A stretch of DNA of 32,000 nt from Bdellovibrionales bacterium (GTDB lineage: Bacteria > Bdellovibrionota > UBA1018): positions 151,758 to 183,757 of the forward strand of contig JAFEAP010000023.1 of NCBI GenBank assembly GCA_018266355.1, written 5' to 3'. The position numbers and the translations under genes were made by a program. The notes under the pieces were generated by a model, which was not told where the DNA came from, searched no databases, and saw only the letters and a program-made list of their open reading frames with translations. This document shows positions 7,409-26,283 of the stretch, one piece after another (position 1 is the first letter of the stretch; the number at the start of each line of letters is the position of its first letter).

Positions 7409-8743
7409 TTACGCGCGATCTCCGTACCAGGTGAGGAAGTTCGGCAGCGCTTGGGAGGCCATGTGCTTCCGGAGGTCGTCCTTGCGGAGGCCTTCGGCGC
7501 CCGGGAACACGGCCGGATCGTAGATCGCGAAGCAGGCGTTGATCGGTTGGTAGTGCTTCGGGTCCGAGCCGGTGACGTAGCGGAGGAGCGCGCCCATCGC
7601 GGTATTCACCGGCGGGACGTCGAGCGGTTTACCGCGGACGCGATCGAGGATGAAGTTCGCGGCGAGCAGTCCGCACGCCGCGCTCTCGAGGTAGCCCTCG
7701 ACGCCGGTGACTTGGCCGGCGAGGTAAACCCGCGGATGACCCTTGAGCGAGAGATCGGCCCGAAGGACGCGCGGGCCGTTCACGTAGGTGTTCCGGTGGA
7801 TCGAACCGAGGCGGATGAATTCGGCGCGGGCGAGCGCCGGGATCATGCGGAAGATCTTCGATTGCTCGCCGTACTTCAGTTTCGTCTGGAAGCCGACGAG
7901 GTTGTACGCGGTCTTCGATACGTTCTCGGCGCGAAGCTGCACGCACGCGTAGGGGCGCTTGCCCGTGCGCGGGTCGGTAAGACCGACCGGCTTCATCGGG
8001 CCGAAGCGGAGCGTGTCGCGTCCGGTGGCGGCGATCGATTCGATCGGCTGGCAGCCTTGGAATAGGATCTCCTTCTCGAAGTTCTTCGGCGGGACTTTTT
8101 CGCCGGCGAGGAGCGCGTCGAGGAAGGCGTTGTATTCCGGCTCGGAGAGCGGGCAATTCAAGTAGGCGGCTTCCTCGCCCTTATCGTAGCGATTCGCGAG
8201 GAACGCGTGCTCGCGATCGATCGTCGCGGCGTCGACGATCGGGGCGATCGCATCGTAGAAGTAAAGGTCGTCGCCGGTCTGGGCGCCGATCCACGCCGCG
8301 AGGGCTTCCGAAGTGAGTGGTCCGGTCGCAAGCAGCGTGATGCCGTCCTCGAACGGGCGCGTGACTTCGCCCGCGTGGCGGGTGATCGCGGGATGGGCGG
8401 AGAGTTTCTTCGTCACGTACTCCGCGAAGACGTCGCGGTCGACGGCGAGCGCGGCGCCCGCGGGAACGCGCGCGACGTCGGAGGCCTCGAGGGCGAGCGA
8501 TCCCATCGCGCGCATCTCGGCCTTCATCATGCCCGGCGCGGACACGGGATCGGTCGTCTTGAACGAGTTCGAGCAGACGAGCTCGGCGCAGCGATCGGTC
8601 TTGTGCGCTTCGGTCATCTTCGTCGGGCGCATCTCGTGGAGGTGGATTTCGAGGCCGGCGCTCTCGGCGTGCCGGCCGAGGAACCACGCCGCTTCCGAGC
8701 CCGCGAGTCCGCTGCCGACGATGTGGACTTTCTGCTTCTGCAT
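7409..8743 (-). CDS. trmFO: Methylenetetrahydrofolate--tRNA-(uracil-5-)-methyltransferase TrmFO
   Basis: 444 aa. VHIVGSGLAGSEAAWFLG FAD-binding motif, EMRPTKMTEAHKTDRCAELVCSNSFK, LLATGPLTSEALA, GCQPIESIAATGRDTLRFGPMKPVGL, YLESAACGLLAA. Confidence 0.95.
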   Translation of the reverse strand: MQKQKVHIVGSGLAGSEAAWFLGRHAESAGLEIHLHEMRPTKMTEAHKTDRCAELVCSNSFKTTDPVSAPGMMKAEMRAMGSLALEASDVARVPAGAALAVDRDVFAEYVTKKLSAHPAITRHAGEVTRPFEDGITLLATGPLTSEALAAWIGAQTGDDLYFYDAIAPIVDAATIDREHAFLANRYDKGEEAAYLNCPLSEPEYNAFLDALLAGEKVPPKNFEKEILFQGCQPIESIAATGRDTLRFGPMKPVGLTDPRTGKRPYACVQLRAENVSKTAYNLVGFQTKLKYGEQSKIFRMIPALARAEFIRLGSIHRNTYVNGPRVLRADLSLKGHPRVYLAGQVTGVEGYLESAACGLLAANFILDRVRGKPLDVPPVNTAMGALLRYVTGSDPKHYQPINACFAIYDPAVFPGAEGLRKDDLRKHMASQALPNFLTWYGDRA

Positions 8744-9744: not shown

Positions 9745-10368
9745 ATGGATTGGCTCGTCGATTTCCTCCTTAATTTTTACGGTCCCTGGCCGTACCTGCT
9801 GATTTTCGGAATTCTGCTCCTCTGCGGGTTTGGGCTGCCGGTTCCCGAGGACGTCACGCTCTTCGCGGGGGGGCTGCTCGCGTACTACGGCGTCTGCGAC
9901 CTCTGGCTGATGATCCTCGTTTGCTTCCTCGGCGTGATGCTCGGCGATTCGGCGATGTGGTTCGTCGGCCGCCACTACGGTCGGAAAATCCTGAAGAAGC
10001 CTTTCTTCCATCGCCTCCTACCCGACGAGCGGATCGCGCTCGCGTCCCGAAAACTGAACAGCAAGGGCTCGAAGCGCATGCTCTTCTTCGGGCGATTCAT
10101 GCCGGGGCTTCGCGCCCCGATTTATTTCACGTCGGGACTCCTGCACGTTCCGTACATCCGATTCTTCTCGATGGACGGACTCGCGGCGGCGATCAGCGTC
10201 CCGCTCTTCGTCGGCTCCGTCTATTACTTCGGCGATTCGCTCGATTCCGTCATCCGGTGGATCAAACGCTTCGAGCACGGGATCGTCTTCATCGTGATCG
10301 GCGCGGGACTTTTTCTCGCGTTCCGCTGGTGGCGTTCGCGCCGGACCACGCCCGAGGGGGTCGCGTGA
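9745..10368 (+). CDS. DedA-family membrane protein
   Basis: 207 aa. GFGLPVPEDVTLFAGGLLAYYG, GVMLGDSAMWFVGRHYGRKIL, FFGRFMPGLRAPIYFTSGLL motifs. Confidence 0.9.
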   Translation: MDWLVDFLLNFYGPWPYLLIFGILLLCGFGLPVPEDVTLFAGGLLAYYGVCDLWLMILVCFLGVMLGDSAMWFVGRHYGRKILKKPFFHRLLPDERIALASRKLNSKGSKRMLFFGRFMPGLRAPIYFTSGLLHVPYIRFFSMDGLAAAISVPLFVGSVYYFGDSLDSVIRWIKRFEHGIVFIVIGAGLFLAFRWWRSRRTTPEGVA

Positions 10369-11387: not shown

Positions 11388-12560
11388 CTAGTTCGGAAGC
11401 TTCGTGACGAGATCCGCGCGGACCCAAGCCGTGCGATCGGAAGAACCGATGCGCGGGCTTTCGATCTTCATCCATCCGTCCTTCTCTTCGACGAGATTCG
11501 CGACGGCGGAGCGGTCGAGCGTCTGGACGGCGGTTCCCTGCATTCCGGGCGAGGCGCGGAGCACGGCGCGCGGCACGCGGACGATCACCGTCGTCCGGAC
11601 GTTCTCGGCGCGGACGGCGGAGTTCGCCTTCGACCGGATCGAATCGGCTTCGGTCGGGGCGGACGGAGCGGAGGGCGCGATCACCGGCGAAAGCGCTTGT
11701 TTGCCCTCGTGATAGAGGTAGATGCCCGAACCGATCGCGAGGACGATCGCGACCCAAAGCGCGATCATCGGACGCAGGCTCGCGCGGTATTCGGAGACGG
11801 CCTTCTCGGAAGCGAGCGTCGACTCGATGATCGGGTCGACGGACGAGCTCGTGTCGATCACTTCGACGGCTTCCGGCGGCGGGTTCATCACGGTCACGTC
11901 GACTTCCATGTCGTCGATCGCTCCTTCGGCCGAGATCGCGTTCACGGTCGGGATTTCGTCGATCGCGTCGTCGTCGAGCTCGGACGGGAACGCGCGCTCG
12001 ATCAGGTCGATCGGGGTGACCGTCGGCTTCAGCAGGAACGCGGGCGGCTTCGCGTAGGCGAAGACCGGGGGCGCGGCGGCGACGTCGTCTTCGATCGCGT
12101 TCGCGTCGGCGATCGCGATGGATTCGAAAGAGGGCACGAACGGCGGCGGAGCGCTCGGGCGGGTCACGATCGCATCCATCGCCATGTTCATCGTCATCAT
12201 CGCCGCGTTCGGCGGCGGCGGCGTCGCGGATCGGGCGGACGGAGACGGCGCGGGCGCGATCGCGTCGATCTTCGCCGCGATCTTCGTCGCGTTCGAGAGT
12301 TTGTCAGTCAGATCGCGGATCTGCGATTCCATCGATTGGATCTTCGTCGTCGCGTTCGCGGTCTGGGTGAGCCGGAGTTCGACTTCGAGCTGGGCTTCTT
12401 CCTCGAGGCGGCGCGCCTTCACATAATCGGCGAGAACCGCGCTCCGATGGACGAGCGCCATACCTTTGCACTTCGCGCAGCGGACGTAGGCCTTCTTCGT
12501 GTTCTCGAAGTCGATGCCGGCGGTGACCAGTTCTTCGCAGTGAGGGCAGTTCCAACGCAT
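11388..12560 (-). CDS. N-terminal zinc-ribbon, coiled-coil, acidic/Pro-rich linker, TM and C-terminal SH3b-like domain protein
   Basis: 390 aa from ATG 12560 (track starts at 12728). MRWNCPHCEELV...VRCAKCKGMAL, coiled coil, ASLRPMIALWVAIVLAIGSGIYLY TM, then VPRAVLRASPGMQGTAVQTLDRSAVANLVEEKDGWMKIESP...GRTAWVRADLV-like SH3. Confidence 0.65.
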   Translation of the reverse strand: MRWNCPHCEELVTAGIDFENTKKAYVRCAKCKGMALVHRSAVLADYVKARRLEEEAQLEVELRLTQTANATTKIQSMESQIRDLTDKLSNATKIAAKIDAIAPAPSPSARSATPPPPNAAMMTMNMAMDAIVTRPSAPPPFVPSFESIAIADANAIEDDVAAAPPVFAYAKPPAFLLKPTVTPIDLIERAFPSELDDDAIDEIPTVNAISAEGAIDDMEVDVTVMNPPPEAVEVIDTSSSVDPIIESTLASEKAVSEYRASLRPMIALWVAIVLAIGSGIYLYHEGKQALSPVIAPSAPSAPTEADSIRSKANSAVRAENVRTTVIVRVPRAVLRASPGMQGTAVQTLDRSAVANLVEEKDGWMKIESPRIGSSDRTAWVRADLVTKLPN

Positions 12561-12783
12561 GGTTCTTCTCCAGTTCCTATCTTCTAGGATCGAAGAAGGA
12601 GGGGATCGGAACAATCGGTAGAATCTGCCTCTATATAATGAGGACGACGGGGCAATTTCTGCCGAGCGGGAGTCCGCGTTTTCTCCGTACTGGACTCCGG
12701 TGAGGTCGAATATAACGCGATAAGTCAAATCTCTGACCCCGAACCCCCGATGGGGCTCGTTTACCGCTTATCCCGGAGTTTTT

Positions 12784-13122: not shown

Positions 13123-13914
13123 TTACGTGCCCGTAGGAGATTCGACCGACGGCGGTAACGCCGTGGCCGACGGGCCCGCGGGCCCGGCCGTTTCGTCGAA
13201 GATCCGAATGACGACGCGGCGATTGCGATCGTTCGCGGTCGTCTCGTCGACGGCGGCCGGATCGCGTGCGGGCTCGACTTCCGGCCGCGTGTCCGCATAA
13301 CCGATCGCCACCAGGCGCTTCGGATCGAAACCGTGGTCGATGAACGCGCGCACGACGCGCGCGGCGCGGGCGCTCGAGAGTTCCCAGTTCGAAGGATACG
13401 GACCGGAGAGGATCTTCCGCGAGTCGGTGTGCCCTTCGACGGCGACCTTGAACTGCTTGTGTTCGGCGGTTTGGATACGGGAAATCTCGGCGAAGAACGG
13501 TTCGAGGGTCTTCGCGCCTTCGGGCGAAATCTCCGACGAGAGCGTGTCGAAGAAGGTCGTCGATTGGAAGACGAGCGAGACGCCGTCGGCGCCGAAGCGC
13601 ACGGCGGCTTCCTTCTCGAGGCCGTTTTTCTCGATCACTTGGTGGAGGAAACGCGCGTACTCGGCGTTCGCCGACTTGAAATCGCCGCCGAACTGCTTCG
13701 CGACCGACTCGCGCACCTTCTCGTACTTCGTCGCATCGAGCTTCGCGAACGAGAAGAGCATGATGAAGAAGCCGCAGAGGAGCGTCATGATGTCCGCGTA
13801 GGACATCAGCCAGTTCGACTCGTCGTGGCCGGCGGCGTGGAGATACGGATCGATCTCCGGGTGCCGGCTCTGCTCGACGACTTCGGGTTGCTTCTTTCTA
13901 TCCAGCCAGCCCAT
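13123..13914 (-). CDS. motB: MotB-like stator protein with OmpA-like peptidoglycan-binding domain
   Basis: 263 aa. NWLMSYADIMTLLCGFFIMLFSFAKLD ion-channel helix; VAVEGHTDSRK...NWELSSARAARVVRAFIDHG and YADTRPEVE OmpA-like motifs. Confidence 0.9.
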   Translation of the reverse strand: MGWLDRKKQPEVVEQSRHPEIDPYLHAAGHDESNWLMSYADIMTLLCGFFIMLFSFAKLDATKYEKVRESVAKQFGGDFKSANAEYARFLHQVIEKNGLEKEAAVRFGADGVSLVFQSTTFFDTLSSEISPEGAKTLEPFFAEISRIQTAEHKQFKVAVEGHTDSRKILSGPYPSNWELSSARAARVVRAFIDHGFDPKRLVAIGYADTRPEVEPARDPAAVDETTANDRNRRVVIRIFDETAGPAGPSATALPPSVESPTGT

Positions 13915-13921
13915 ATCGGAT

Positions 13922-14704
13922 TTACGCCGCCTTCTTCAGGACGCGTTCGCCCGGGAGGAGGAACGAGTTCAGCCCTTCGCGCATCGCGACCGGGTTCACT
14001 TGGGACTTCAGCATGACCGCGCCTTCCATCATGATCCGGCGGAGGTTCATCTCCTCGCGCGTGCGCTCGGTCAGGTTCTCCGCGATCGGGAGGAAGACGA
14101 GGTTCGCGAGCGCGATCCCGTAAAGGGTGCCGATGAGGCCGACGGACATCGCCGGGCCGATCAGCGACTGGGAATTCGGTTGGCCGATCTTCTGGAGGAC
14201 GCCGATCATCCCGAGCGTCGTCGCGAGGAGGCCGAACGCCGGCGGGAAACGCCCGATCGTGCGGAACATGTTCGCCTCGAGCAGGTAACGGCCCTCGATC
14301 GTCTTGATCCGCTGTTCGAGCGTCGAACGGATCTCCTTGTCGGTGAGGACGCCGCCGGCGACGAGCGTGACGGCTTCCTTCAGGAACGGGTGCGAGATCG
14401 CGTTCGCGGCTTCCTTCAGCGTCGGCAGGCCCATCGCGGCCTTGCGATTCAATTCGAGGAGCTGCGAGATCGCGCCCTGGTAGTCGACGGCGTTCCGGCC
14501 GAGCACCCGGTTCACGAAGACTTTCGTGAGGGCGAAAATCTTGGAAAGCGGGAAACTGATCGACGTCGCGGCGAACGTCCCGCCGATGACGATCAGGATG
14601 CCGTGAAAATCGAGGAAGAACCCGAGATTGTCCGTCGTGGCGGTCATCGCGCCGTACATCACGCCGAGTCCGACGAGGAGCCCGAAGAGGGAAGAGGGAT
14701 TCAT
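13922..14704 (-). CDS. motA: MotA/PomA-like stator protein
   Basis: Track ORF starts at 14743. The likely ATG is 14704 (MNPSSLFGLLVGLGVMYGAM). DFHGILIVIGGTFAATSISFP, FRTIGRFPPAFGLLATTLGMIGVL, GLIGTLYGIALANLVFLPIAENL. Confidence 0.9.
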   Translation of the reverse strand: MNPSSLFGLLVGLGVMYGAMTATTDNLGFFLDFHGILIVIGGTFAATSISFPLSKIFALTKVFVNRVLGRNAVDYQGAISQLLELNRKAAMGLPTLKEAANAISHPFLKEAVTLVAGGVLTDKEIRSTLEQRIKTIEGRYLLEANMFRTIGRFPPAFGLLATTLGMIGVLQKIGQPNSQSLIGPAMSVGLIGTLYGIALANLVFLPIAENLTERTREEMNLRRIMMEGAVMLKSQVNPVAMREGLNSFLLPGERVLKKAA

Positions 14705-15201
14705 GCGGCCTTCTTTCCGTCGCCCTTCAAGGCGACCTTCCAAAGCTGGTACTGGGTATCGACGTAGTTATCGTCGAGGCTGCGCAGGCGCTTCGCGAGC
14801 TCCTGGGTGCAGCGGCGGTAGAACTCGCACTTAGCGGTTTCGTTCTGGGCGAGGAAGCGCTGGAACACTTCCGCGGGAAGATGGAACGCCTTCACGGCGG
14901 TCAGCGCCTGGACGGTGGCCGAACGGGGAGCATCGTCGACGAGGGACATCTCGCCGAACGAATGGCCCGCCCGAAGCTGGGCGATCTCGACGAGGTCGCC
15001 CGAGGCGCGGTTCGTCTTGAAGATTCCGACCTGGCCTTCCATGACGAAGAAGAGCCCGCCCGAAGGCTCCCCTTCGATCACCATGAGGGTGAGCGCGTCG
15101 TAGGTGAGGATCTCGCCGCTCTTCAGGAACGTCTCGAGGTCCGCGTCCGAAAACGCGGCGAGGAGCTTCACTTCGCGGAGGTGGGCTGCGGTCATGTTCA
15201 T
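14701..15201 (-). CDS. Cyclic-nucleotide-binding (CNMP) domain protein
   Basis: 166 aa. GLFFVMEGQVGIFK, ELxxGHSFGEMSLVDDAPRSATVQALTAVKAFHLP, the canonical phosphate-binding cassette. No HTH recognised. 4-nt overlaps with both neighbours. Confidence 0.88.
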   Translation of the reverse strand: MNMTAAHLREVKLLAAFSDADLETFLKSGEILTYDALTLMVIEGEPSGGLFFVMEGQVGIFKTNRASGDLVEIAQLRAGHSFGEMSLVDDAPRSATVQALTAVKAFHLPAEVFQRFLAQNETAKCEFYRRCTQELAKRLRSLDDNYVDTQYQLWKVALKGDGKKAA

Positions 15202-17570
15202 GAGGCCTTCCGGATCGAAGCGACGTTATTCGAGGCGTAAGCCGCGAAGAGGCGGTCGTTCACGTCGGCGAGGTTCACGAGCGTGTCCTGGGCCATCATC
15301 TTCACGCGGTTCAGCACCTTGCGTTCGAGCGCACCGTAGATGTCGCGGCTCGGGTTCTGCATGACCGCGAGTTCCTCCTCGAGGTCGCTCACGAGGTCGC
15401 GCGGACACTTCGCGAAGACGGAACCGCGGATGTCGTCGCGGCAACCCTTCAGGAAGTTCAGCAGCTCGTCGTGGCGCAGGCTCAGGATCACCTCGAGCAG
15501 CTGGCCGTCCGGGAGGAAGGCGAGCGTGTCGACGGATACGAGCTTGTGCTTAACGACCCGGGCGCTCTCCGGGTTGTTCATCTCGAGGTTGCGGACGACC
15601 GATTGCTGCACGGTCGGTTCGCTGCGCTCGAGCAGGTTCACGAGCACCTCGCTGCCCGGCAGGGCTTCGGTGTTCAGCCGCGGGTTTTCCATCCGCTTCC
15701 GCTTGAGGGCGTTCGCGACGTTCTGGATGTAGTCGCGCGGGAGGTAGTCGATCCGCGAAAGCTCGGCGAGGAGTTTCAAGCGGGTCGCCTCGTCGATCGC
15801 GCCGAAGATCGCCGCCCGCTTCTGGTTATCGCACTGGGTGAGCACGATCGCCTTCACGGTGAGGGACTCGTTCCGCACGAGTTCCATGATCTGCATGCCG
15901 TCCATCTCCGCGAGGTAGTCGAACTGGGCGGAGGAGCGGGAAGCGACGACGGCCATCTTGCCGGCGACCGTCCGATGATGGAGCTTCTTCAGGAGTTCGA
16001 GTTTCTCGGCGTCGTCGAGTTCGATCGGCGTGCGCGCGTAGAATTCCATCAGCTCGTTCAAGTCGTGCTGGAGCGAGGGATCGCGAAGGAGATCGAGGAC
16101 TACGCTTTCGCCGAAGATCGAGAGGTAAGCCGACGTCGTCTCGATGCCTTCCTCGGTGAGGATCCGGCCGAAGACGTATTTAGCCACGCGCGGTTGCTCG
16201 GCGAAAATGCCCATGAGTTCGTCGCGGAGGCGATCGATCTCATAGCGGCGCCCGATCGAGGATCCGCCGTTCGACGGCGGGGCTCCTTCGGGCGGGGCGA
16301 GGTTCGCGAGCGTCGCCTCGCCGCCGGAAGCCGGCAGCGCCGGCATCGGAGCGGCGGCCATCGGCATGTTCTTCGTCTCGATCGTCGTCTTCGATCGAAG
16401 CGTCGAGAAGGCGATGAAGCCGAGGAGGCCGAGGATGATCGCGGCGAAAATCGAGGCGTAGGTGCGCATCGTCTTGAATTCGGTGGTGAGCGCGTCTCCG
16501 TTTTCGATGCGTTCGATCTTCTCGAAGTGCTGGAAGTTCTCGGTTCGCTGGTCCTTCGTCACGTTCGATTCGCGGTCGGTGCGGTTCGTCGAGTCCGAGC
16601 TCGTCGTCCGGTTGTTCGCTTCGGAGGTCGACGCCGTGCGGTTATCCGTGGTGTTGTGGTTCTGTTGGTTGTAGTTTTCCGTGCGTTTCGATTCGAGGGA
16701 TTCCTTCGAATCCCGGCTCTGGGTCTTCGCGTAGGTCTTTCCGTCGGCGCCGACGTAAGTCGGCATACCGGCGAACTCGGATCCTTCGTTCGCGATGCGC
16801 GGAAATTTCATCGCCTTTGCGCGGAGGTCGGAATTCTTGAAGTCGCCGACTTTCAGCTGGGCCATCTCGAGGATGTTCGCACGGTCGCCGTCCGGAATCG
16901 CCTCCTCCATGAGGAGGGTCGCGCCGATCGATTTCACCCGCACGGCGACGCCGGCGGTCTCGAAGTACTCGCCCGCGGTGCCGTAGCCGGCTTCCTCGGC
17001 GTTCACGAGTTCGGTCTGGAGCTCGTAGTCGGAAAGCATGCAGTCCTTCGGGCAAACCTTCGCGATGACTTCCTCGATCGCCCCCTTGTACTGCTTCGTG
17101 ATCCGGTCGCGGAGTTCGGTGACTTTCGCCGCGCTTTCGGCGGGCGACGGGAAGCGCGCGGTTTTCGTCGCGACTTTCACCGGGTAGTCGAGGGTCTCGA
17201 GGTAGCGGTTCACGAGGTCGAGGACCCGCGTGCGGGTGTTCGGGCCGATTTTCTCGTCGATGAGGACTTTCACTTCGGCCGAGGCCGGTTCGAGCTCGCC
17301 GCGCGCGCCGGCGTCGACTTCGTCGAATCCCGGGGCGATCGTGTCGGCGGAGGCGACGTCGACGTCGACGTCGATCGAGAGGAGTTTGCACTCGTCGGAG
17401 CAGTACTTCATGAAAACGGGATCGACGATCGCGTGGATCGCGGTGCGCGCGGTCTTCTTCACTGATTCGATCGCGGCGGTCGTGCCGGAATCCTTGGCGT
17501 GGGCCGGGGCGGCAAAGACCGCCGCCGAGGCGAGGAGGGATAAATAGAGGATCGACGACTTCGTTTTCAT
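15198..17570 (-). CDS. Signal peptide + duplicated CxxxC periplasmic region + TM + FliG-like cytoplasmic C-terminal domain protein
   Basis: 790 aa. MKTKSSILYLSLLASAAVFAAPAHA signal. Periplasmic part with FliF/YscJ-reminiscent ASAEVKVLIDEKIGPNTRTRVLDLVNRYLETLDYPVKVATKTARFP. TM YASIFAAIILGLLGFIAFSTL. C-terminal VVKHKLVSVDTLAFLPDGQLLEVILSLRHDELLNFLKGCRDDIRGSVFAKCPRDLVSDLEEELAVM resembling the FliG C-terminal domain. Confidence 0.75.
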   Translation of the reverse strand: MKTKSSILYLSLLASAAVFAAPAHAKDSGTTAAIESVKKTARTAIHAIVDPVFMKYCSDECKLLSIDVDVDVASADTIAPGFDEVDAGARGELEPASAEVKVLIDEKIGPNTRTRVLDLVNRYLETLDYPVKVATKTARFPSPAESAAKVTELRDRITKQYKGAIEEVIAKVCPKDCMLSDYELQTELVNAEEAGYGTAGEYFETAGVAVRVKSIGATLLMEEAIPDGDRANILEMAQLKVGDFKNSDLRAKAMKFPRIANEGSEFAGMPTYVGADGKTYAKTQSRDSKESLESKRTENYNQQNHNTTDNRTASTSEANNRTTSSDSTNRTDRESNVTKDQRTENFQHFEKIERIENGDALTTEFKTMRTYASIFAAIILGLLGFIAFSTLRSKTTIETKNMPMAAAPMPALPASGGEATLANLAPPEGAPPSNGGSSIGRRYEIDRLRDELMGIFAEQPRVAKYVFGRILTEEGIETTSAYLSIFGESVVLDLLRDPSLQHDLNELMEFYARTPIELDDAEKLELLKKLHHRTVAGKMAVVASRSSAQFDYLAEMDGMQIMELVRNESLTVKAIVLTQCDNQKRAAIFGAIDEATRLKLLAELSRIDYLPRDYIQNVANALKRKRMENPRLNTEALPGSEVLVNLLERSEPTVQQSVVRNLEMNNPESARVVKHKLVSVDTLAFLPDGQLLEVILSLRHDELLNFLKGCRDDIRGSVFAKCPRDLVSDLEEELAVMQNPSRDIYGALERKVLNRVKMMAQDTLVNLADVNDRLFAAYASNNVASIRKAS

Positions 17571-18334
17571 TATTTCCCCTCGCTTTCGGAGGCGAGACCC
17601 CGGGTCGCGCGTTTGCGATCGAGGTATTTCTTCAGGGCCAAGTTCTGCGGATTCAGCCGGAGCGACTGCTGCCAGGACCGGACGGCGAGCTCGTAGCGGC
17701 CGAGGCGGTCGAGAAGCGTGCCGCGCATCTCATAGAGTTTAGGGGCGGTCGGGAAGTCGACGAGGAGGTCCTCGACCTCGAGGAGCGAGGCTTCGTAACG
17801 GCCTTCACGGTAGAGACGTTTGATGCGGTCGAGACCGGCGAGGTAGCTCTTATCCGCGTGCGGCGTCGAATCGGCGGAAGGCATCACGCCGAGGGTCTGT
17901 TCGATGTCGTTCCGTTCGCCCTCGAACTCGCCGCCGTTTTTCGGGAACGATTCGGTGATTTCGCGGTCGGCGATGACCGGCTTCTTGTTCCGGTAGGGAT
18001 CGTCGAGGTCGGCCGTGGTTTCGTCCGCGCCGGCCGCACGGGTCGGCAGCGAGACTTCGTCGAGCTTCGTCGACTGGTCGGGGAAGGTGACTTCGAAACT
18101 GCGGTCGCCCTTACGCGTGCGGAAAACGGTTCCGGTCTCGGCGGTCGCGGCCGCGCCGCCGCCGGCTTGGTACCCTTCGAAAGGATTCGTGATCGGACCG
18201 TCGGATTTTTTCTCGTTCGTGGCGAAGACCGTGCTCATCGTGGAACAAGCGGGGACGGCGGCGAGCACGACGAGCGTCGTCGTGAAGGCTCGGGTCATCT
18301 CGGCTAGGTTTTTCTCGGGTTTGCGGTTCGCCAT
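17570..18334 (-). CDS. TPR-containing lipoprotein
   Basis: 254 aa. Lipobox LVVLAAVPAC. TPR-like SLLEVEDLLVDFPTAPKLYEMRGTLLDRLGRYELAVRSWQQSLRLNPQNLALKKYLD. Overlaps the next gene by 1 nt (TAATG). Confidence 0.7.
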   Translation of the reverse strand: MANRKPEKNLAEMTRAFTTTLVVLAAVPACSTMSTVFATNEKKSDGPITNPFEGYQAGGGAAATAETGTVFRTRKGDRSFEVTFPDQSTKLDEVSLPTRAAGADETTADLDDPYRNKKPVIADREITESFPKNGGEFEGERNDIEQTLGVMPSADSTPHADKSYLAGLDRIKRLYREGRYEASLLEVEDLLVDFPTAPKLYEMRGTLLDRLGRYELAVRSWQQSLRLNPQNLALKKYLDRKRATRGLASESEGK

Positions 18335-18353: not shown

Positions 18354-19475
18354 TTAAAACAGGGCACTGATGCCCAATCCATATTCGATCCCGGAAACGC
18401 TTTTCTCGGTCCCGGTGATGAGCGTCGTCGCCTTCGGCCGGTAACCGAGCGTCGTGCTCACGGCCCAGTGCTTCGCGAGCCGCCATTCGTAGCCCGCGCG
18501 GAAGACTCCGCCGAGGTAGCCCGACGCGTACGTGCCGCCGACCCCGGTGACGATCGTACCGCGCACCTGGTTGTAGTTCTCTTCCGCGCCGATCAGGTTC
18601 CACGCGTGGACGAAGAGCATCGTCATGTTGAAGGAACCGTAGATGCGGGCGCCGGTATCCGTCGTGGTCGACTCGACCGGCGATCCGGAGAGCGTACGGA
18701 CGTCGGTGATGTAGTCGAGTTCGAACCCGACTTCCTTTTTCCGGTTGTCGTAGCGTTCGACGAGGCGGAAACCGAGGCTCAGGCAACTCGAGCGCTCCCC
18801 CGCGTCCGGTTCGTTCAGGTAAGAGATCGTCCCGCGGTATTGGAGCGTCGGGATGTATTCGTTTTGTTTCACGGAAGCTTCCATCTGGGAGAAATCGACG
18901 CCTCGACGGTACGCGGAAGCGCGGGAGGTCTCCGAATTGTAACTGCGCGACCAGACGACGCTTCCCGTAGCGGCGTCGGCCGTCGTCATCGAGAGCACCA
19001 TTCCGGTGGGTTGGAACGAGAACGCGAGATCCATGAAGTTTTCGATGCCCTGGGCCTTCGCGATGCGCGCGAGTTCGTTCGGATTCAACTCCGCGGAAGT
19101 CACGAGGATCTGGTCTTGGTTCAGCGTCGCCTTGCGTGCGCGGCACGGAAGACACTGCACGACGCGCGTCTTCGTCGTGGCGAGGATCTTTTCGGTGACG
19201 ACGAGTTCGAGGTGGTTCCGGAACGACGGCGGGATGTTCTCGCTCATCGCGATGTTCCGGATCGCGAGATCCTTCAATCCGCTCACGCTTCCGTTTTTCA
19301 GGTCGTATTCGAAATCGGAGAGGAGGTCGCCGAGGACATCGTAGAAATTCCGCGTCTCGGTTTGGGAAGCCGCGTGCGCGCGCGCCGGCATCGCCGACGT
19401 GAGTACAGCGAGGGTGGTAGCGAGTGCAGTGATGAAGCGGCGATTCTGAAGATTCATAGAGGGTCTTTCGGACAC
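18354..19475 (-). CDS. Exported protein with CsgG/FlgO-like N-terminal domain and C-terminal outer-membrane beta-barrel
   Basis: 373 aa if GTG 19475, or ATG 19457 (MNLQNRRFITALATTLAVLTSAMPARAHAA signal). LELVVTEKILATTKTRVV...GMVLSMTTADAATGSVVWSRSYNSE is CsgG/FlgO-like. Alternating strands end in YGLGISALF with terminal Phe. Confidence 0.6.
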   Translation of the reverse strand: MSERPSMNLQNRRFITALATTLAVLTSAMPARAHAASQTETRNFYDVLGDLLSDFEYDLKNGSVSGLKDLAIRNIAMSENIPPSFRNHLELVVTEKILATTKTRVVQCLPCRARKATLNQDQILVTSAELNPNELARIAKAQGIENFMDLAFSFQPTGMVLSMTTADAATGSVVWSRSYNSETSRASAYRRGVDFSQMEASVKQNEYIPTLQYRGTISYLNEPDAGERSSCLSLGFRLVERYDNRKKEVGFELDYITDVRTLSGSPVESTTTDTGARIYGSFNMTMLFVHAWNLIGAEENYNQVRGTIVTGVGGTYASGYLGGVFRAGYEWRLAKHWAVSTTLGYRPKATTLITGTEKSVSGIEYGLGISALF

Positions 19476-19504
19476 TCCTTCCTCACTCCCGTTTCGGGTC
19501 GGGA

Positions 19505-19526
19505 CGAAAACTTCTTTAAGTTTTCG
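19505..19526. promoter_or_regulatory. Perfect 9-bp inverted repeat upstream of the six-gene operon
   Basis: CGAAAACTT-CTTT-AAGTTTTCG read directly from the sequence. Confidence 0.4.
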
Positions 19527-21718: not shown

Positions 21719-22831
21719 CTACTCCGGGATCAGCCCGCGGGCCCAGTCTTGCGGGCGTCGGATCCGCCAGATGAACCCGTCGAGGACGTAGTGGGTCGCT
21801 TGGGGGAGCGTCAGCAGGGCGACGAGGATCGCGGTCAGCGCCGGTCCGGGCCGGAAGTCGCCGAGGAATCGGTGAAATTCGGGAAAGAGCGCGACGTGAT
21901 CGCGCCAGATCCAAACGTCCCAGAACCCCTCCTCGAGGTAGGCGAGGAGGAAGAGTACCCCGAGGTAGACGGGGACGAGGGAGAGCGTGAAGAAACGTCC
22001 GCTTCGGATTCGATACGCGCCGACGGAAAGCACGCGACGCGGGTCTCGCTCGGAGCCGGTTCGCCCGGTGATCCACACGAGTGCGAGGTAAGGCACGCCG
22101 TGGGCGACGACGTTCGTCAGCGTGAAAAGGAGATCGCTGTTGAAGACGACGATCCCGACGTTCCACGCGAGCGCCGTTCCGACGATCCAAAGCACCTTCG
22201 TCGCCGAGAATCGGCCGATGCGTCGACGGACGGAGAACTGCTCGAGGATCCAAGCCGCGCCGATCGCGAGCGCCGCGATCCGGGCGAGGAGCTCGACTGC
22301 GGGCGGAAGTCCGGTCGCGAAATCTCCTGCGATGAACCAAACGAAGTCGCGCGGGAGATGCGCATGCCAGTACACGAGGGGATAGAGGGTCGCCGCGTAG
22401 ACCGCCGCGCGGTCGAGGGGGGTGACGCCGCTTCCGTCCTTCGCTCCGTAGAGCGCGAGAAATCCGTACTGCTGCCTTACGAAGTGGAAGACCGCGACGT
22501 AAGTGAGCACGCGCCAAAAGAGCGCGGGATCGACCGAGTGGATGAGCGCGCCGACCGCCCATGCCGCGATCGGGATCCACAGGAGCGCTCCGCGGTGCTC
22601 CGCGCGTTCCTTCGGATCGAGGTAAGTCCGAAAGAGCGTCGAGTAGACGTGGGCGACGTCGACGAGCAAGACGAGGGCGAGCCATCCGTACGGGCCGAGG
22701 CTAGGGATCTCGAGCTCTCGCGCGCGCGCGTAGACTCCGACGGCGATCGCGGCGGCGGCTGTGAACCACGCGGGCCCGATGAAGAACGCGAGATCGAATC
22801 CGGGGCCGCGGATCCACCTAGACTTTTCCAC
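21719..22831 (-). CDS. Polytopic membrane protein with conserved-looking histidines
   Basis: 370 aa, multiple TM helices; VDVAHVYSTLFRTYLDP, VAVFHFVRQQYGF, YWHAHLPRDF, VVAHGVPYLAL, QATHYVLDGFIWR. Confidence 0.65.
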   Translation of the reverse strand: MEKSRWIRGPGFDLAFFIGPAWFTAAAAIAVGVYARARELEIPSLGPYGWLALVLLVDVAHVYSTLFRTYLDPKERAEHRGALLWIPIAAWAVGALIHSVDPALFWRVLTYVAVFHFVRQQYGFLALYGAKDGSGVTPLDRAAVYAATLYPLVYWHAHLPRDFVWFIAGDFATGLPPAVELLARIAALAIGAAWILEQFSVRRRIGRFSATKVLWIVGTALAWNVGIVVFNSDLLFTLTNVVAHGVPYLALVWITGRTGSERDPRRVLSVGAYRIRSGRFFTLSLVPVYLGVLFLLAYLEEGFWDVWIWRDHVALFPEFHRFLGDFRPGPALTAILVALLTLPQATHYVLDGFIWRIRRPQDWARGLIPE

Positions 22832-24524
22832 GGCGCTCCGTCCGTCCGAGATCGGAGAGCACCCGCTTCGCGGCGAGGACCCCCCGGTACTGGGCCTCCT
22901 CGAAAAGCGACATCCCCGAGATATCCGAATGCGCGAAATGCACGCGGCCGAACGAGCGCTCGAGGCCCGCGCGCTCGTCGCCCGAGAGGTATCCGGGCGC
23001 GGGCGAGATCATCCCGTGACCCCAAACCCGGTAATCGATTCGTGTCACGCGGCTTCGGATATCGGGATGCATCCCCTCGAGGTCGGCGAGGATCCGTTCG
23101 CGCCATTCGGCGGGCGTCGTCCGCGCGGCACGGAGGCGGGCCTCCTTCGCCGGCCGATCGGAAAGCGGCCAGTAATGAGTGAGGACGCTCCCTCGCGCGA
23201 TCGACTCGGTCTGGTGAGTCGCGACGACGTAGCCGAGCGAGTCCGAGTAATAACTCACGTTATCCCACGCGGTGAGCGGAGCGTGACCTTCCTCGGTCGT
23301 CCCTGGGAGATCCTCGACGGTCAAGTTCGCGACCAGCCAGGGGGCGTAAACGGCCGAGTCGATCGGCGCGCGGGCCGCTTCGGGCAGGATCCGATTCGCG
23401 ACGAACCGTGGAGTCGCGACGACGACGCTCTTCGCGCGGATCCGGGAGCGGGCCCCGTCGTTCGCGCGCAACGTATCGACGAGTACCGCGTCGCCCTCGA
23501 CCGAGATCCGGGTCGCGGCCTCGCCGGCGCGGATTTTTCCCGCACCGAGGGCCCGCAGTTTCCCGGCGAGGAATCCGTTCCCCTCCGGCCAGGCGAGAAT
23601 CGCCTGGGAATCGGCGTTTGCGGCGACGCCGCGCCGGGCGGCATGGTAATGGATGCCGGCCCAAGCCGACGTGCGCTCGAGCGGGCTGCCGAAATCGTCG
23701 CGACACGCGTAGTTCAAGTACCACCGCAGCGGCCGCGACCGATATCCCTCGCGGTCGAGCCATTCCGCCATCGACATCCGATCGAGCTCCGCGAGGTCCT
23801 TCGCGCGGAAACGGTCGCGCGACCCTTCCGCGATCGGGATCGCGAAGATCGGCCGTCCGTCGGAACCTTTCCGGTCGCCGAAGCGGCGCATTTCGTCGAA
23901 GAACCGCCGCATCTCAGCGCGTTCGTCGCCGGTGAGTCCCGCTTGGGGCACGATGCCTTCCTGGAATTTTCCCTCGATCCAGAGCCGTTCGACGGCGTCG
24001 TGGCAGATCATCGTCTCGTCGAACGTCGGGCGTCCCTTTCCGTCCCGACCGGTGATCGCGCCGATTTCCTCGAGGAATTCGTGGACGAAGCGCGATTCCG
24101 CGTTCGGGATCGGAAGATAGTGGGCCCCCCACGGATAGGCGGAAACGGCGTTCTCGCCCGACATCGAGTTTCCGCCGGTGCGGTCCTCGAGTTCGAGGAG
24201 GAGGTAATCGGAAAATCCGTTCCGGGAGAGCCACCACGCGGCGGAGAGCCCCGCGATTCCGCCGCCGAGGACGAGGACCGGGACGTCTTCGATCGCTCCG
24301 GCGGGTGCCTCGGCGGGAATCGTCCCGTCGCGCAGCCGGTGGCCGAGGGCCGCGTTCGGCGAGTGCTCCTCGATCGGGATGGCGGTGAAGCGGAGGTCGC
24401 GCAGCCAACGGTGCCAGGGAAACGCGGCGGCGGCGAGAAAGCCGCCGGCCGCGATCAGGAAGTGCCGACGGTCGAAGGATCCGGCGCGCCTCGCGCGGTC
24501 AGTGGAGGTACGCGTCCCACTCAT
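22818..24524 (-). CDS. FAD-dependent (amine-oxidase-like) oxidoreductase with N-terminal export/anchor segment
   Basis: 568 aa. FDRRHFLIAAGGFLAAAAFPW and VPVLVLGGGIAGLSAAWWLSRNGFSDYLLLELEDRTGGNSMSG dinucleotide-binding motif. Confidence 0.8.
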   Translation of the reverse strand: MSGTRTSTDRARRAGSFDRRHFLIAAGGFLAAAAFPWHRWLRDLRFTAIPIEEHSPNAALGHRLRDGTIPAEAPAGAIEDVPVLVLGGGIAGLSAAWWLSRNGFSDYLLLELEDRTGGNSMSGENAVSAYPWGAHYLPIPNAESRFVHEFLEEIGAITGRDGKGRPTFDETMICHDAVERLWIEGKFQEGIVPQAGLTGDERAEMRRFFDEMRRFGDRKGSDGRPIFAIPIAEGSRDRFRAKDLAELDRMSMAEWLDREGYRSRPLRWYLNYACRDDFGSPLERTSAWAGIHYHAARRGVAANADSQAILAWPEGNGFLAGKLRALGAGKIRAGEAATRISVEGDAVLVDTLRANDGARSRIRAKSVVVATPRFVANRILPEAARAPIDSAVYAPWLVANLTVEDLPGTTEEGHAPLTAWDNVSYYSDSLGYVVATHQTESIARGSVLTHYWPLSDRPAKEARLRAARTTPAEWRERILADLEGMHPDIRSRVTRIDYRVWGHGMISPAPGYLSGDERAGLERSFGRVHFAHSDISGMSLFEEAQYRGVLAAKRVLSDLGRTERRGKV

Positions 24525-26278: not shown

Positions 26279-26283
26279 TTCTC

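What the first reader, a model, noticed from the sequence alone, without database searches (positions are those of the whole stretch)
15198..17570. Single polypeptide combining a secreted-type, possibly MS-ring-like periplasmic region with a FliG-like rotor domain
The order is signal peptide, periplasmic region, one TM helix, then a FliG-C-like cytoplasmic domain. The periplasmic stretch 'VKVLIDEKIGPNTRTRVLDLVNRYLETLDYPVKVATKTARFP' recalls FliF/YscJ ring-building domains. In flagella FliF and FliG are separate proteins held by FliF's C-terminus; here they may be natively joined with type I topology. A Ser/Thr/Asn/Asp-rich linker (TENYNQQNHNTTDNRTASTSEANNRTTSSDSTNRT) precedes the TM.
Basis: partly seen in the sequence, partly recalled or inferred. 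Interest (0 to 1): 0.75.

Follow-up and report, generated by a model that had tools for sequence, protein, structure and literature searches.

The report
Membrane-tethered FliF/FliG fusion with own stator
A group of uncultured Bdellovibrio-like bacteria encode one protein that joins a flagellar-rotor (FliG) domain inside the cell to MS-ring-like domains outside the inner membrane, next to its own MotA/MotB ion motor, which suggests an undescribed use of the flagellar torque machinery.

Summary
The ORF at 15198-17570 (minus strand, 790 aa) has a signal peptide, two homologous alpha-beta-beta-alpha-beta periplasmic domains, a low-complexity linker, a conserved juxtamembrane helix, one TM helix and a full-length FliG-like cytoplasmic part (N, M, C).

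In the PDB, only FliG and FliF match the predicted structure at E<1e-3. The periplasmic half has no detectable sequence relative outside its own family.

The torque-helix charges are conserved. The FliM-binding EHPQR motif and the MFXF switch motif are lost.

The gene lies in a tightly overlapping operon found in about 80 Bdellovibrionota species: OM-barrel-like protein, TPR lipoprotein, fusion, cNMP-binding protein, flagellar-type MotA, then MotB with an invariant channel Asp.

A sigma-28-type motif precedes the operon in 50 of 68 loci (1.6 expected). The same motif precedes the window's flagellin gene.

Distant variants usually keep the MotAB linkage in another gene order. One subgroup stands alone beside a DsbA-like gene.

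I found no paper on this family. The nearest precedent is the short Chlamydia FliF-FliG fusion.

Most likely a dedicated stator drives this tethered FliG-like protein. Whether it is part of the flagellar motor or a separate machine is unresolved.

The parts
15198..17570 (-). 790-aa fusion protein (whole ORF): signal peptide, 2 RBM-like domains, linker, juxtamembrane helix, TM helix, linker, FliG-like N-M-C
17496..17570 (-). aa 1-25: signal-peptide-like N-terminus (MKTK, hydrophobic core, AHA|KD). Homologues mostly keep an AxA site. It could instead stay uncleaved as a first TM, as in FliF.
   Evidence: sequence reading; no SignalP available
17148..17489 (-). aa 28-141: periplasmic domain D1, alpha-beta-beta-alpha-beta. 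It carries invariant C57/C61 and a PGF motif in the beta1-beta2 loop.
   Evidence: AF2 pLDDT about 80-90; Foldseek FliF top hits; invariants
16800..17141 (-). aa 144-257: periplasmic domain D2. It has the same fold, invariant C173/C177, and a small helix-hairpin insert between beta1 and beta2. It is homologous to D1.
   Evidence: hhalign of D1 against D2: prob 96.8%, E=2.5e-10
16560..16799 (-). aa 258-337: Ser/Thr/Asn/Gln-rich disordered periplasmic linker, variable in length between homologues
   Evidence: pLDDT 28-42; alignment gaps
16464..16559 (-). aa 338-369: highly conserved charged juxtamembrane helix (consensus RQERFERxEKIERVENGDAVQAELQKFK; invariant E350 I352 E353 R354 E356 G358 D359 A360)
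16398..16463 (-). aa 370-391: single transmembrane helix
   Evidence: hydropathy; continuous helix 359-391 in the model
16248..16397 (-). aa 392-441: Pro/Ala/Gly-rich disordered cytoplasmic linker
   Evidence: pLDDT 31-39
15246..16247 (-). aa 442-775: full-length FliG-like region (N, M, C). EHPQ is replaced by NESL and MFXF by KLVS.
15366..15404 (-). aa 723-735: torque-helix equivalent P-[KR]-[DE]-L-x-x-[ED]-L-E-[ED]-E-L. K708 and R/K742 flank it.
   Evidence: column counts over 28 homologues; alignment to T. maritima and E. coli FliG
18354..19475 (-). 373-aa first gene of the operon: signal peptide, conserved N-terminal domain with CxxC, and a C-terminal half that looks like an OM beta-barrel (ends ...SALF; weak DUF3575 match). 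It belongs to an orphan family.
17570..18334 (-). 254-aa putative lipoprotein (…AAVPAC) with C-terminal TPR repeats. Its stop overlaps the fusion's ATG.
14701..15201 (-). 166-aa stand-alone cyclic-nucleotide-binding protein with an intact phosphate-binding cassette (FGEMSL…PRSATV). ATGA overlaps link it to the genes on both sides.
   Evidence: present in 65 of 85 loci
13922..14704 (-). MotA, 260 aa counted from the internal ATG. It is a flagellar-type stator A subunit.
   Evidence: Full-length match to Clostridium MotA 8ucs/6ysf (E=4e-34) and PomA (E=4e-31); NCBIfam MotP/PomA best; K/R88-K/R89, E/D99 and K/R110-E111 conserved
13123..13914 (-). MotB, 263 aa: TM helix with invariant Asp (SYAD), plug, and an OmpA-like peptidoglycan-binding domain
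19492..19518 (-). sigma-28 (FliA)-type promoter motif TAAAG-N15-CCCGAAA, 43 nt upstream of the first gene of the operon

Best explanation
The 790-aa protein is a membrane-tethered paralogue of the flagellar rotor protein FliG. Its exported half is a tandem pair of FliF-like (ring-building-motif type) domains.

It is the central gene of a six-gene operon: OM-barrel-like protein, TPR lipoprotein, fusion, cNMP-binding protein, MotA, MotB. The operon is transcribed from a sigma-28-type promoter together with the late flagellar genes.

Proposed mechanism:
1. The operon's own flagellar-type MotA5B2 stator is fixed to peptidoglycan by MotB. Ion flow through it depends on the invariant MotB Asp.
2. 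The stator pushes on the conserved charged torque helix of the fusion's FliG-C domain, as stators do on FliG in a flagellum.
3. The FliM-binding and switch motifs are gone and no fliM or fliN is nearby. The unit therefore works without a C-ring and probably in one direction.
4. Copies of the fusion assemble side by side into a ring or array, through FliG-type ARM stacking and the RBM-like domains.
5. Movement passes across the inner membrane through the single TM helix and the conserved juxtamembrane helix. It then passes along an approximately 80-residue flexible linker to the periplasmic domains.
6. The periplasmic domains dock on the TPR lipoprotein and OM protein.
7. The small cNMP-binding protein gates the device in response to cAMP or cGMP.

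I take this to be a self-contained rotor-stator module that is co-expressed with the flagellum, not a core flagellar part.

Shown: the domain architecture, the predicted folds, the conserved interface residues, the operon, the synteny and the promoter motif.

Inferred: the physical MotA-fusion contact, oligomerisation, the periplasmic partners, the output and the role of cNMP.
For: - Architecture and folds.
- Only FliG and FliF reach E<1e-3 against the PDB for the full model.
- Torque-helix charges are kept in 26-28 of 28 homologues: K708, K/R724, D/E725, E/D729, E731-E733, R/K742. The partner charges in MotA are kept in 69-71 of 71: K/R88-K/R89, E/D99, K/R110-E111.
- MotA is a full-length flagellar-type stator subunit (E=4e-34 to 8ucs; tolQ only 0.009).
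- The MotB Asp, plug and OmpA domain are conserved.
- Start and stop codons overlap between TPR and fusion, fusion and CNB, and CNB and MotA (coordinates).
- Synteny holds in every locus long enough to show it, with one exception (L019, 5.6 kb): TPR in 81, MotA in 77, OMP in 76 and MotB in 73 of 85 loci.
- The linkage to MotAB, TPR and OMP survives at 22-28% identity in a different gene order (L087). It also survives in the one-domain short variant.
- No other flagellar structural gene lies in the operon.
- EHPQ and MFXF are replaced.
- The TIGR00207 fliG equivalog score of 47.7 is far below the cutoff of 226.7.
- Engineered FliF-FliG fusions form rings and work (PMC11481574; PMC4768692).
Against: - No direct evidence exists for a MotA-fusion contact or for ring formation.
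- The flexible linker of about 80 residues is a poor torque shaft.
- The sigma-28-type promoter, the flagellin genes 4-11 kb away in at least 25 loci (adjacent in one short-variant contig), and the flagellar type of the stator all fit a role inside the flagellar motor equally well.
- In one subgroup (L090, L091) the fusion gene has no MotAB, OMP or TPR gene within 10 kb. The linkage is therefore not universal.
- I could not check whether these genomes hold a separate canonical fliG, fliF or motAB.
- The FliF resemblance is fold-level only, and BON domains share the topology.
Confidence: 0.45

Rival explanations
1. The module is an accessory part of the flagellar motor of this clade. MotAB would be a flagellar stator, possibly the only one. 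The OM protein and TPR lipoprotein would form a periplasmic scaffold like FlgO/P/Q, PflA/B or MotX/Y. The fusion would form an extra inner-membrane ring around the stators, and its FliG-like domains would hold, park or idle against the outer face of MotA. It would act as a stator-docking ring, an idler ring or a brake, tuned by cNMP.
For: - A sigma-28-type motif lies upstream of the operon in 50 of 68 loci, against 1.6 expected.
- The same motif sits before the flagellin gene of the same window and before one flagellin paralogue in 9 of 46 upstream regions.
- Flagellin genes lie close by in at least 25 loci and directly next to a short variant.
- All characterised stators of this type are flagellar (PMC12505986).
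- MotA is the best-conserved protein of the operon, at 59-93% identity.
- In L090 and L091 the fusion has no stator genes nearby, so it would have to use stators encoded elsewhere.
- Rings of TM proteins around stators have precedents (H. pylori cage, E-ring; PMC13023049).
Against: - No fli, flg or flh structural gene is in or next to the operon.
- A fixed FliG-like partner on the far side of a rotating MotA pentamer would jam it. An idler ring has no precedent.
- MotAB diverges in step with the fusion in distant variants (26% identity in L087), as expected of a dedicated pair.
- No sigma-28 motif was found at the operon starts of the distant variants.
Confidence: 0.35
2. It is a regulator, not a force-transmitting machine. 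The tethered FliG-like domain would act as a decoy that sequesters MotAB stators away from the flagellar rotor, working as a clutch or stator reservoir. Release would be controlled by the cNMP-binding protein and by what the periplasmic domains sense.
For: - The torque-helix and MotA charges are conserved, so binding is plausible.
- A homologous CNB protein stays near the fusion even where MotAB is absent (38% identity, E=1e-28 in L091).
- The operon is co-regulated with flagellin.
- Brakes such as YcgR act at the same interface (established knowledge).
Against: - A decoy does not need a full FliG (N, M and C), two conserved periplasmic domains, an OM protein and a TPR lipoprotein, all kept over deep divergence.
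- The CNB gene is missing in about 20% of loci.
- Encoding the stator together with its own inhibitor in a 1:1 operon is unusual.
Confidence: 0.1
3. The FliG-like part is only a generic ARM/MgtE_N-type protein-binding domain, and the periplasmic part a BON-like or other alpha/beta domain. The protein would be an envelope sensor or scaffold unrelated to torque, and its adjacency to MotAB would reflect regional synteny in one clade.
For: - There are weak MgtE_N matches (and for the variants).
- BON proteins OsmY and DolP match the periplasmic model at about 2e-3.
- There is no sequence-level link to FliF.
- The tier-1b variants stand alone.
Against: - FliG_M and FliG_C pass Pfam gathering scores.
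- Full-length FliG structures are the top matches, and FliF outranks BON by three orders of magnitude.
- The torque-helix charge pattern is conserved.
- MotAB linkage recurs in three gene orders at 22-28% identity, which regional synteny cannot explain.
Confidence: 0.07

Closest known systems
Flagellar rotor FliF (MS ring) plus FliG (top of the C ring) driven by MotA5B2 stators
   Same: - The membrane topology matches FliF followed by FliG: exported RBM-type domains, a TM helix, then cytoplasmic FliG N-M-C.
- FliG and FliF are the only significant PDB fold matches.
- The torque-helix charges and the MotA partner charges are conserved.
- The stator is of the flagellar type, with plug, Asp and OmpA-like domain.
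   Different: - It is one polypeptide.
- It has two RBM-like domains instead of three, with no beta-collar and no sequence similarity to FliF.
- A disordered linker of about 80 aa lies between the domains and the membrane.
- The FliM-binding EHPQR motif and the MFXF switch motif are lost.
- No export-gate, rod, FliM or FliN genes are nearby.
- It is encoded with an OM protein, a TPR lipoprotein and a cNMP-binding protein.
Natural FliF-FliG fusion of Chlamydiaceae (Bergeron 2016, PeerJ, PMC4768692)
   Same: It is a natural single chain. A signal or TM segment and RBM-type periplasmic domains are followed by a TM helix and a FliG-like cytoplasmic domain.
   Different: - The chlamydial protein is about 330 aa. 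According to the paper it has RBM2 plus one RBM-like unit and only a FliG-M-like domain.
- It lies in a non-flagellated organism that has a T3SS.
- The paper reports no torque-generating FliG-C domain and no MotAB partner.
- The present family has full FliG N-M-C with a torque helix and a dedicated MotAB.
Engineered FliF-FliG fusions of Salmonella and Vibrio (PDB 8z4d; PMC11481574; bioRxiv 10.1101/2023.02.06.527414)
   Same: They show that a covalent FliF-FliG chain can assemble rings. In Salmonella such a chain supports rotation (as cited in PMC4768692). The FliG part of 8z4d matches the query (E=4.5e-4).
   Different: They are laboratory constructs of complete FliF joined to complete FliG inside a normal flagellum.
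Non-flagellar 5:2 ion-driven motors coupled to an envelope-spanning partner (ExbBD-TonB, TolQR-TolA, AglRQS-GltG/J, GldLM)
   Same: - The overall logic is the same. An inner-membrane ion motor is paired with a single-pass protein whose long flexible periplasmic segment reaches outer-membrane partners.
- It is encoded with OM-barrel and TPR proteins, as in Glt.
   Different: - Here the motor belongs to the flagellar MotA/PomA class (E=4e-34; tolQ 0.009).
- Coupling would occur through the cytoplasmic FliG-MotA interface, not through TM-helix contacts.
- Those systems are not described as using a FliG-like domain (my knowledge; PMC12505986 mentions none).
E-ring proteins FlbB / FlgY / MotE (FEMS Microbiol Rev 2026, PMC13023049)
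   Same: They are single-pass flagellar ring proteins carrying an ARM/MgtE_N/FliG-like domain.
   Different: Their ARM-like head is periplasmic and follows an N-terminal TM and coiled coil. Here the FliG-like part follows the TM after an exported N-terminal half, so it is cytoplasmic, and it is a complete FliG with a torque helix.

Membership tests
FliG (flagellar motor switch protein) | FliG_M and FliG_C domains recognisable by sequence | tested here: met
   PF14841 38.7 bits (cutoff 25); PF01706 43.7 bits (cutoff 23.3); 1lkv E=1.9e-9 over aa 550-760
FliG (flagellar motor switch protein) | Full-length equivalog score (TIGR00207) | tested here: not met
   47.7 bits against a cutoff of 226.7. 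It is a divergent paralogue, not an orthologue.
FliG (flagellar motor switch protein) | Three-domain N-M-C fold | tested here: met
   Foldseek aligns about 315 columns with full-length FliG (8umx_B E=8.4e-7; 3hjl E=9.7e-7). The model pLDDT is 80-90 over aa 442-775.
FliG (flagellar motor switch protein) | Charged torque helix facing MotA (E. coli K264, R281, D288, D289, R297) | tested here: met
   K708; K/R724 (offset by one); E732/E733 aligned to D288/D289; R/K742 (offset by one). These are conserved in 26-28 of 28 sequences.
FliG (flagellar motor switch protein) | EHPQR motif of FliG-M that binds FliM, and the MFXF switch hinge | tested here: not met
   EHPQ aligns with NESL, and MF(V/L)F aligns with KLVS. 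Both replacements are conserved in the family.
FliG (flagellar motor switch protein) | Soluble protein held on FliF by the FliG-N / FliF C-terminal co-fold | tested here: not met
   It is joined covalently to a TM helix through a 50-aa linker. No FliF C-terminal peptide equivalent was seen.
FliF / YscJ (MS-ring, ring-building-motif proteins) | Sequence membership (Pfam YscJ_FliF, YscJ_FliF_C) | tested here: not met
   - hmmscan of the protein found no hit at E<=1.
- hmmscan of 24 periplasmic regions found none at E<=10.
- The PDB profile search found no FliF.
- hhalign against E. coli FliF gave E=0.18.
FliF / YscJ (MS-ring, ring-building-motif proteins) | alpha-beta-beta-alpha-beta RBM fold in tandem, flanked by membrane segments | tested here: met
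   - Two such units appear in both models, at pLDDT about 80-94.
- FliF chains are the top seven Foldseek hits (E=1.6e-6 to 1.7e-3). EscJ and PrgH rank lower.
- Both units carry an insert between beta1 and beta2, the position of the insert in the split RBM3 of FliF (PMC4768692).
FliF / YscJ (MS-ring, ring-building-motif proteins) | Beta-collar and assembly into a ring of about 33-34 subunits | not testable with these tools
   No long beta insert is present.
Flagellar stator MotA/MotB (PomA/PomB class) | Four-TM A subunit with a large charged cytoplasmic domain; B subunit with channel Asp, plug and PG-binding domain | tested here: met
   - Full-length alignment to MotA 8ucs/6ysf (E=4e-34) and PomA 8bri (E=4e-31).
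- MotB_plug and OmpA Pfam domains are present.
- The Asp in SYAD is invariant in 56 sequences.
Flagellar stator MotA/MotB (PomA/PomB class) | NCBIfam equivalog cut-offs (MotP/PomA/MotA; MotS/MotD/MotB) | tested here: not met
   The best MotA score is 141.8 bits against 394. The best MotB score is 132.6 bits against 264. It is a distinct subfamily.
Flagellar stator MotA/MotB (PomA/PomB class) | Drives a flagellum | not testable with these tools
   Only indirect evidence is available: a sigma-28-type promoter and flagellin genes nearby.
Sigma-28 (FliA) regulon | Promoter TAAA/TCAAG-N(~15)-GCCGATAA upstream of the transcription unit | tested here: met
   - T[CA]AAG-N13-15-CCGA[AT]A with at most 1 mismatch occurs in 50 of 68 upstream regions, against 1.6 in shuffles.
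- The only two perfect matches in the window precede this operon and the flagellin gene.
- Function was not tested.

The most novel reading that the evidence does not exclude
This would be a second rotary motor without a filament or export gate. A ring of FliF/FliG-fusion subunits would be turned by its own MotAB stators, and its motion would be delivered through long periplasmic tethers to an outer-membrane complex (OM barrel plus TPR lipoprotein). The purpose could be surface movement, envelope or sheath remodelling, or force-dependent transport. It would be the first non-flagellar use of the FliG-MotA torque interface, and possibly a living model of a minimal or ancestral rotor.
Probability: 0.3. 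Interest if true: 0.92.

Novelty: new variant of a known kind. Interest (0 to 1): 0.78.

Why it matters
The FliG-MotA interface is known only from flagella. All other 5:2 ion motors (Ton, Tol, Agl, Gld, Zor) couple to their partners in other ways.

This is a conserved family in which FliG is welded through the membrane to FliF-like domains. It has shed the FliM and switch motifs and travels with its own stator and outer-membrane partners.

It could be either of two things. One is a new accessory ring of a complex flagellar motor. The other is an independent machine that reuses the flagellar torque generator.

Either way it offers three things:
- a natural minimal rotor (no C-ring, no export gate) for studying torque generation and MS/C-ring assembly
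- a testable case for how flagellar parts are recruited or shed in evolution
- a possible cyclic-nucleotide input to a stator-rotor pair

Two isolates (Bdellovibrionota FG-1 and FG-2) carry it, so experiments are feasible.

Tried and rejected
1. Sequence homology of the periplasmic half to FliF/YscJ or any other family. I tried Pfam on the protein and on 24 homologous regions, a PDB profile search, and hhalign against E. coli FliF. Nothing was significant. The best hhalign stretch (E=0.18) falls on the alpha1-beta1 start of FliF RBM3, which is suggestive only.

2. A profile search of 1.84 billion representatives with the periplasmic profile. It found no FliF proteins, only 152 members of the same superfamily.

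4. Inverted topology, with a periplasmic FliG-like domain as in E-ring proteins. I rejected it because of the N-terminal signal-type segment in all homologues, the invariant Cys pairs in the N-terminal half, and the conserved torque-helix and MotA charges.

5. Ton/Tol/Agl-type motor. I rejected it because MotA matches flagellar MotA/PomA over its full length while tolQ scores 0.009.

6. Identity of the OM protein. There was no Pfam or PDB relative, even with a profile.

7. Sigma-70 promoters and terminators inside the operon. None rose above chance.

8. tRNA and Rfam scans of the window found nothing.

9. Literature. Six full-text searches found no description of this family.

10. I could not determine whether the same genomes also carry canonical fliG, fliF, fliM or further motAB genes.

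Full report
OBSERVATION

The ORF at 15198-17570 lies on the minus strand and encodes 790 aa.

Hydropathy finds only two hydrophobic segments. The first is aa 5-25, an N-terminal signal-type segment (MKTK, hydrophobic core, AHA|KD). The second is a TM helix at aa 370-391.

Pfam FliG_M (aa 560-629) and FliG_C (aa 661-762) pass their gathering scores.

The protein is real and conserved. More than 120 clusters at 90% identity hold full-length homologues of 740-840 aa at 44-82% identity. The 100% match is a hypothetical protein (JST04_11130) of a 'Bdellovibrionales bacterium' MAG. In a 28-sequence alignment everything is conserved except the two low-complexity linkers.

ANATOMY

AlphaFold2 was run with the family alignment, once for the full chain (pLDDT 72) and once for the periplasmic part alone (pLDDT 81.5). 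The models give these parts:

1. Two periplasmic domains, D1 (aa 28-141) and D2 (aa 144-257).
   - Each has the order long helix, long strand, insert, long strand, helix, strand (alpha-beta-beta-alpha-beta).
   - Each has an invariant CxxxC at the helix-strand junction (C57/C61 and C173/C177). Some homologues have Cx9C instead.
   - D1 and D2 are homologous to each other (hhalign prob 96.8%, E=2.5e-10).
2. A disordered Ser/Thr/Asn-rich linker of about 80 aa and variable length.
3. A strikingly conserved charged juxtamembrane helix (…EKIERVENGDA…) that runs straight into the TM helix.
4. A Pro/Ala-rich cytoplasmic linker of about 50 aa.
5. An all-helical region, aa 442-775.

The region aa 442-775 matches T. 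maritima FliG-MC (1lkv, E=1.9e-9) and full-length Aquifex FliG (3hjl, query 489-767 to chain 46-327) by sequence. By Foldseek it matches full-length FliG over about 315 columns (8umx_B E=8.4e-7). It is therefore a complete FliG-like N-M-C unit, not just FliG-C.

For the periplasmic model, the top seven PDB matches are all Salmonella FliF MS-ring chains (8zds_B E=1.6e-6, prob 1.0). BON proteins OsmY and DolP follow at about 2e-3, with EscJ and PrgH at about 1e-2. For the full model, FliG and FliF are the only families below E=1e-3.

TM-scores are modest (0.28-0.42). No sequence-level link to FliF could be found. The FliF likeness is therefore a fold-level statement.

WHAT IS KEPT AND WHAT IS LOST IN THE FliG PART

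I aligned the protein to T. maritima and E. coli FliG and counted residues over 28 homologues.

Kept:
- The torque-helix pattern: K708 (E. coli K264), K/R724-D/E725 (R281, offset by one), E/D729, E731-E/D732-E733 (D288/D289) and R/K742 (R297, offset by one).

Lost:
- The FliM-binding EHPQ motif, which is replaced by a conserved NESL.
- The MFXF switch hinge, which is replaced by KLVS.

The NCBIfam fliG equivalog model scores 47.7 bits against a cutoff of 226.7. This is a divergent paralogue that should still face a stator but cannot bind FliM.

CONTEXT

The gene is third in a minus-strand operon with overlapping stops and starts:

| Coordinates | Product | Notes |
|---|---|---|
| 18354-19475 | 373-aa exported protein | Conserved N-domain; barrel-like C-half ending in Phe; orphan family |
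| 17570-18334 | TPR lipoprotein | |
| 15198-17570 | The fusion | |
| 14701-15201 | 166-aa stand-alone cNMP-binding protein | Intact phosphate-binding cassette |
| 13922-14704 | MotA | |
| 13123-13914 | MotB | |

MotA aligns over its full length with flagellar MotA (8ucs/6ysf, E=4e-34) and PomA (E=4e-31), while tolQ scores only 0.009. MotB has the plug, the OmpA-like domain and an invariant channel Asp. The MotA loop charges that face FliG in PomA/MotA are conserved: K/R88-K/R89, E/D99 and K/R110-E111.

No other flagellar structural gene lies in the operon.

CONSERVATION OF THE MODULE

A scan of one genome per species found 80 or more loci. All are labelled Bdellovibrionota, Oligoflexia or Bacteriovoracaceae MAGs, or are obviously mislabelled bins. 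Isolates 'Bdellovibrionota bacterium FG-1' and 'FG-2' are also among them.

tblastn of the window's proteins against 85 loci gave these counts:

| Protein | Loci with a match (of 85) |
|---|---|
| TPR lipoprotein | 81 |
| MotA | 77 |
| OM protein | 76 |
| MotB | 73 |
| cNMP-binding protein | 65 |

The gene order is the same wherever the contig reaches far enough, with one exception. In L019, a 5.6-kb contig, the fusion is followed directly by the SH3 gene and no CNB, MotA or MotB gene was found. The cNMP-binding protein is missing in one subclade.

A profile of the periplasmic half was searched against 1.84 billion representative proteins. It found only 152 relatives, in three forms besides the window's family:
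- **986-aa form.** The order is OM protein, TPR, MotA, MotB, fusion, at 22-28% identity to the window's proteins (L087).
- **One-domain form of 540-615 aa.** The order is TPR, MotA, MotB, fusion, followed by two further conserved genes.
- **Oligoflexaceae-type form.** The fusion stands alone next to a DsbA-like gene with no stator within 10 kb. A homologue of the cNMP-binding protein lies 1.2 kb away in L091.

The linkage to MotAB, TPR and the OM protein survives rearrangement at very low identity. That argues for function and not for mere regional synteny. The exception shows the linkage is not obligatory.

REGULATION AND THE LINK TO FLAGELLA

The window carries a flagellin gene at 30999-31832. 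At least 25 related loci carry one or two flagellin genes 4-8 kb upstream of the module, and one short-variant contig has one directly adjacent. These organisms are therefore flagellated.

A motif T[CA]AAG-N13-15-CCGA[AT]A matches the sigma-28 (FliA) promoter consensus TAAA/TCAAG-N15-GCCGATAA, which I cite from established knowledge. It lies just upstream of the first gene of the operon in 50 of 68 loci with at most one mismatch, against 1.6 expected from shuffles. The same motif lies upstream of one flagellin paralogue in 9 of 46 regions, against 0.05 expected.

In the window, the only two perfect matches on either strand are at 19518-19492 (43 nt before the operon) and 30762-30788 (about 210 nt before flagellin). 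The operon is therefore very probably expressed with late flagellar genes.

The distant variants L087-L089 show no such motif at their operon starts.

MECHANISM

Shown by the analysis:
- a flagellar-type stator and a FliG-like partner that keep both sides of the electrostatic torque interface
- a covalent connection of that partner through one TM helix to exported FliF-like domains
- co-inheritance with an OM protein and a TPR lipoprotein
- loss of the FliM and switch motifs
- a motility-type promoter

Inferred:
- PG-anchored MotA5B2 pushes on the fusion's torque helix.
- Fusion subunits pack into a ring or array by FliG-type ARM stacking and through the RBM-like domains. Engineered FliF-FliG fusions do form rings (PMC11481574).
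- Movement is carried to the periplasmic domains and their OM partners.
- The cNMP-binding protein modulates the device, possibly at the altered FliM site.

The flexible linker of about 80 aa could span up to roughly 25 nm, enough to cross the periplasm. It is a poor torque shaft. A pulling or tethered output of the TonB/TolA kind, or a ring located near the OM, is as plausible as an MS-ring sitting on the membrane.

I put about 0.45 on a self-contained rotor-stator module co-expressed with the flagellum. I put about 0.35 on an accessory ring or scaffold of the flagellar motor itself. The sigma-28 motif, the flagellin synteny, the flagellar class of the stator and the stator-less Oligoflexaceae variant all favour the second reading. 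The remainder goes to a decoy or clutch role, or to a torque-unrelated scaffold.

COMPARISON WITH WHAT IS KNOWN

The closest natural precedent is the Chlamydiaceae FliF-FliG fusion described by Bergeron (PMC4768692). As described there, it is about 330 aa, has RBM2 plus one RBM-like unit and a FliG-M-like domain only, lies in a non-flagellated organism, and has no MotAB partner mentioned.

Engineered Salmonella and Vibrio fusions (8z4d) show that such chains assemble.

E-ring proteins (FlbB, FlgY, MotE) carry a periplasmic ARM/MgtE_N-like head (PMC13023049), which is the opposite topology.

A 2025 survey of MotAB and its non-flagellar relatives mentions FliG only once, in describing the canonical flagellar stator-rotor interface, and no FliG-type partner outside flagella (PMC12505986).

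Six full-text searches found no description of this family. Public annotations call it 'hypothetical protein', 'FliG C-terminal domain-containing protein' or 'flagellar motor switch protein FliG'.

VERDICT

I classify the feature as a new variant of a known kind: flagellar rotor-stator parts in a new, fused, C-ring-less arrangement with envelope partners.

Three questions remain open, and none could be answered with the tools at hand:
- whether the fusion forms rings
- whether it sits in the flagellar motor
- what its output is

Noticed in passing
window 30999-31832 (+), with motif at 30762-30788: A flagellin gene of 277 aa, 69% identical to the L005 flagellin. It has a perfect sigma-28-type motif about 210 nt upstream, which implies a long 5' leader. 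In related loci the motif sits 270-340 nt upstream of one of two tandem flagellin paralogues.
   Followed up: partly
window 2363-6162: A low-GC stretch (47-50% against about 63% elsewhere). It carries a GH46 chitosanase-like gene (2363-3235, -) and a 789-aa protein with a C-terminal Big_9/cadherin-like domain (3793-6162, -). It may be horizontally acquired.
   Followed up: no
window 22818-29465 (-): A run of genes on one strand: SPFH/Band-7 with SHOCT, two DUF4178 proteins with zinc-ribbon-like N-termini, a 521-aa spermidine-synthase-domain protein, and a flavin amine oxidase. It could be a polyamine-related membrane module. MeaB lies next to it (29490-30584, +).
   Followed up: no
window 11388-12728 (-); 37 related loci: An SH3_3-domain protein directly downstream of MotB recurs after the module in 37 of 85 loci, often only as a short SH3 match. 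It may be a peripheral, peptidoglycan-binding member of the module.
   Followed up: partly
L090 8803-9813 and L091 7408-8382: In the stand-alone Oligoflexaceae-type variant, a DsbA/thioredoxin-like gene sits immediately upstream of the fusion gene in both loci. This fits the invariant CxxxC pairs forming disulfides.
   Followed up: no
L088 1120-13365; L089 890-13292; contig of P0219: The one-domain short variant sits in larger operons. Two further conserved genes (about 311-325 aa and about 178-180 aa) follow the fusion. Upstream lie repeated pairs of genes, one unknown of about 530-570 aa and one barrel-like of about 220-280 aa (Pfam OMP_b-brl hits recorded in L088 only), which suggests a bigger envelope apparatus.
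   Followed up: partly
L019 (5.6-kb contig); L072 and L074 (isolate FG-1): In L019 the fusion is followed directly by the SH3 gene with no CNB, MotA or MotB. Isolate FG-1 shows two copies of the N-terminal 600 aa, each cut off at a contig end. This could be a duplication or an assembly problem at the repetitive linker.
   Followed up: no
window 15471-17465 (+) and other long antisense ORFs: Several ORFs of 250-660 aa overlap the real genes on the opposite strand. They are rich in Arg, Gly and Ala, as expected by chance at 63% GC, and are not genes.
   Followed up: yes
window 7409-8743, 9745-10368; L004: TrmFO/GIDA-family and VTT-domain genes flank the module, both here and in the 46%-identity locus L004. 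Wider synteny is therefore conserved across the clade.
   Followed up: no
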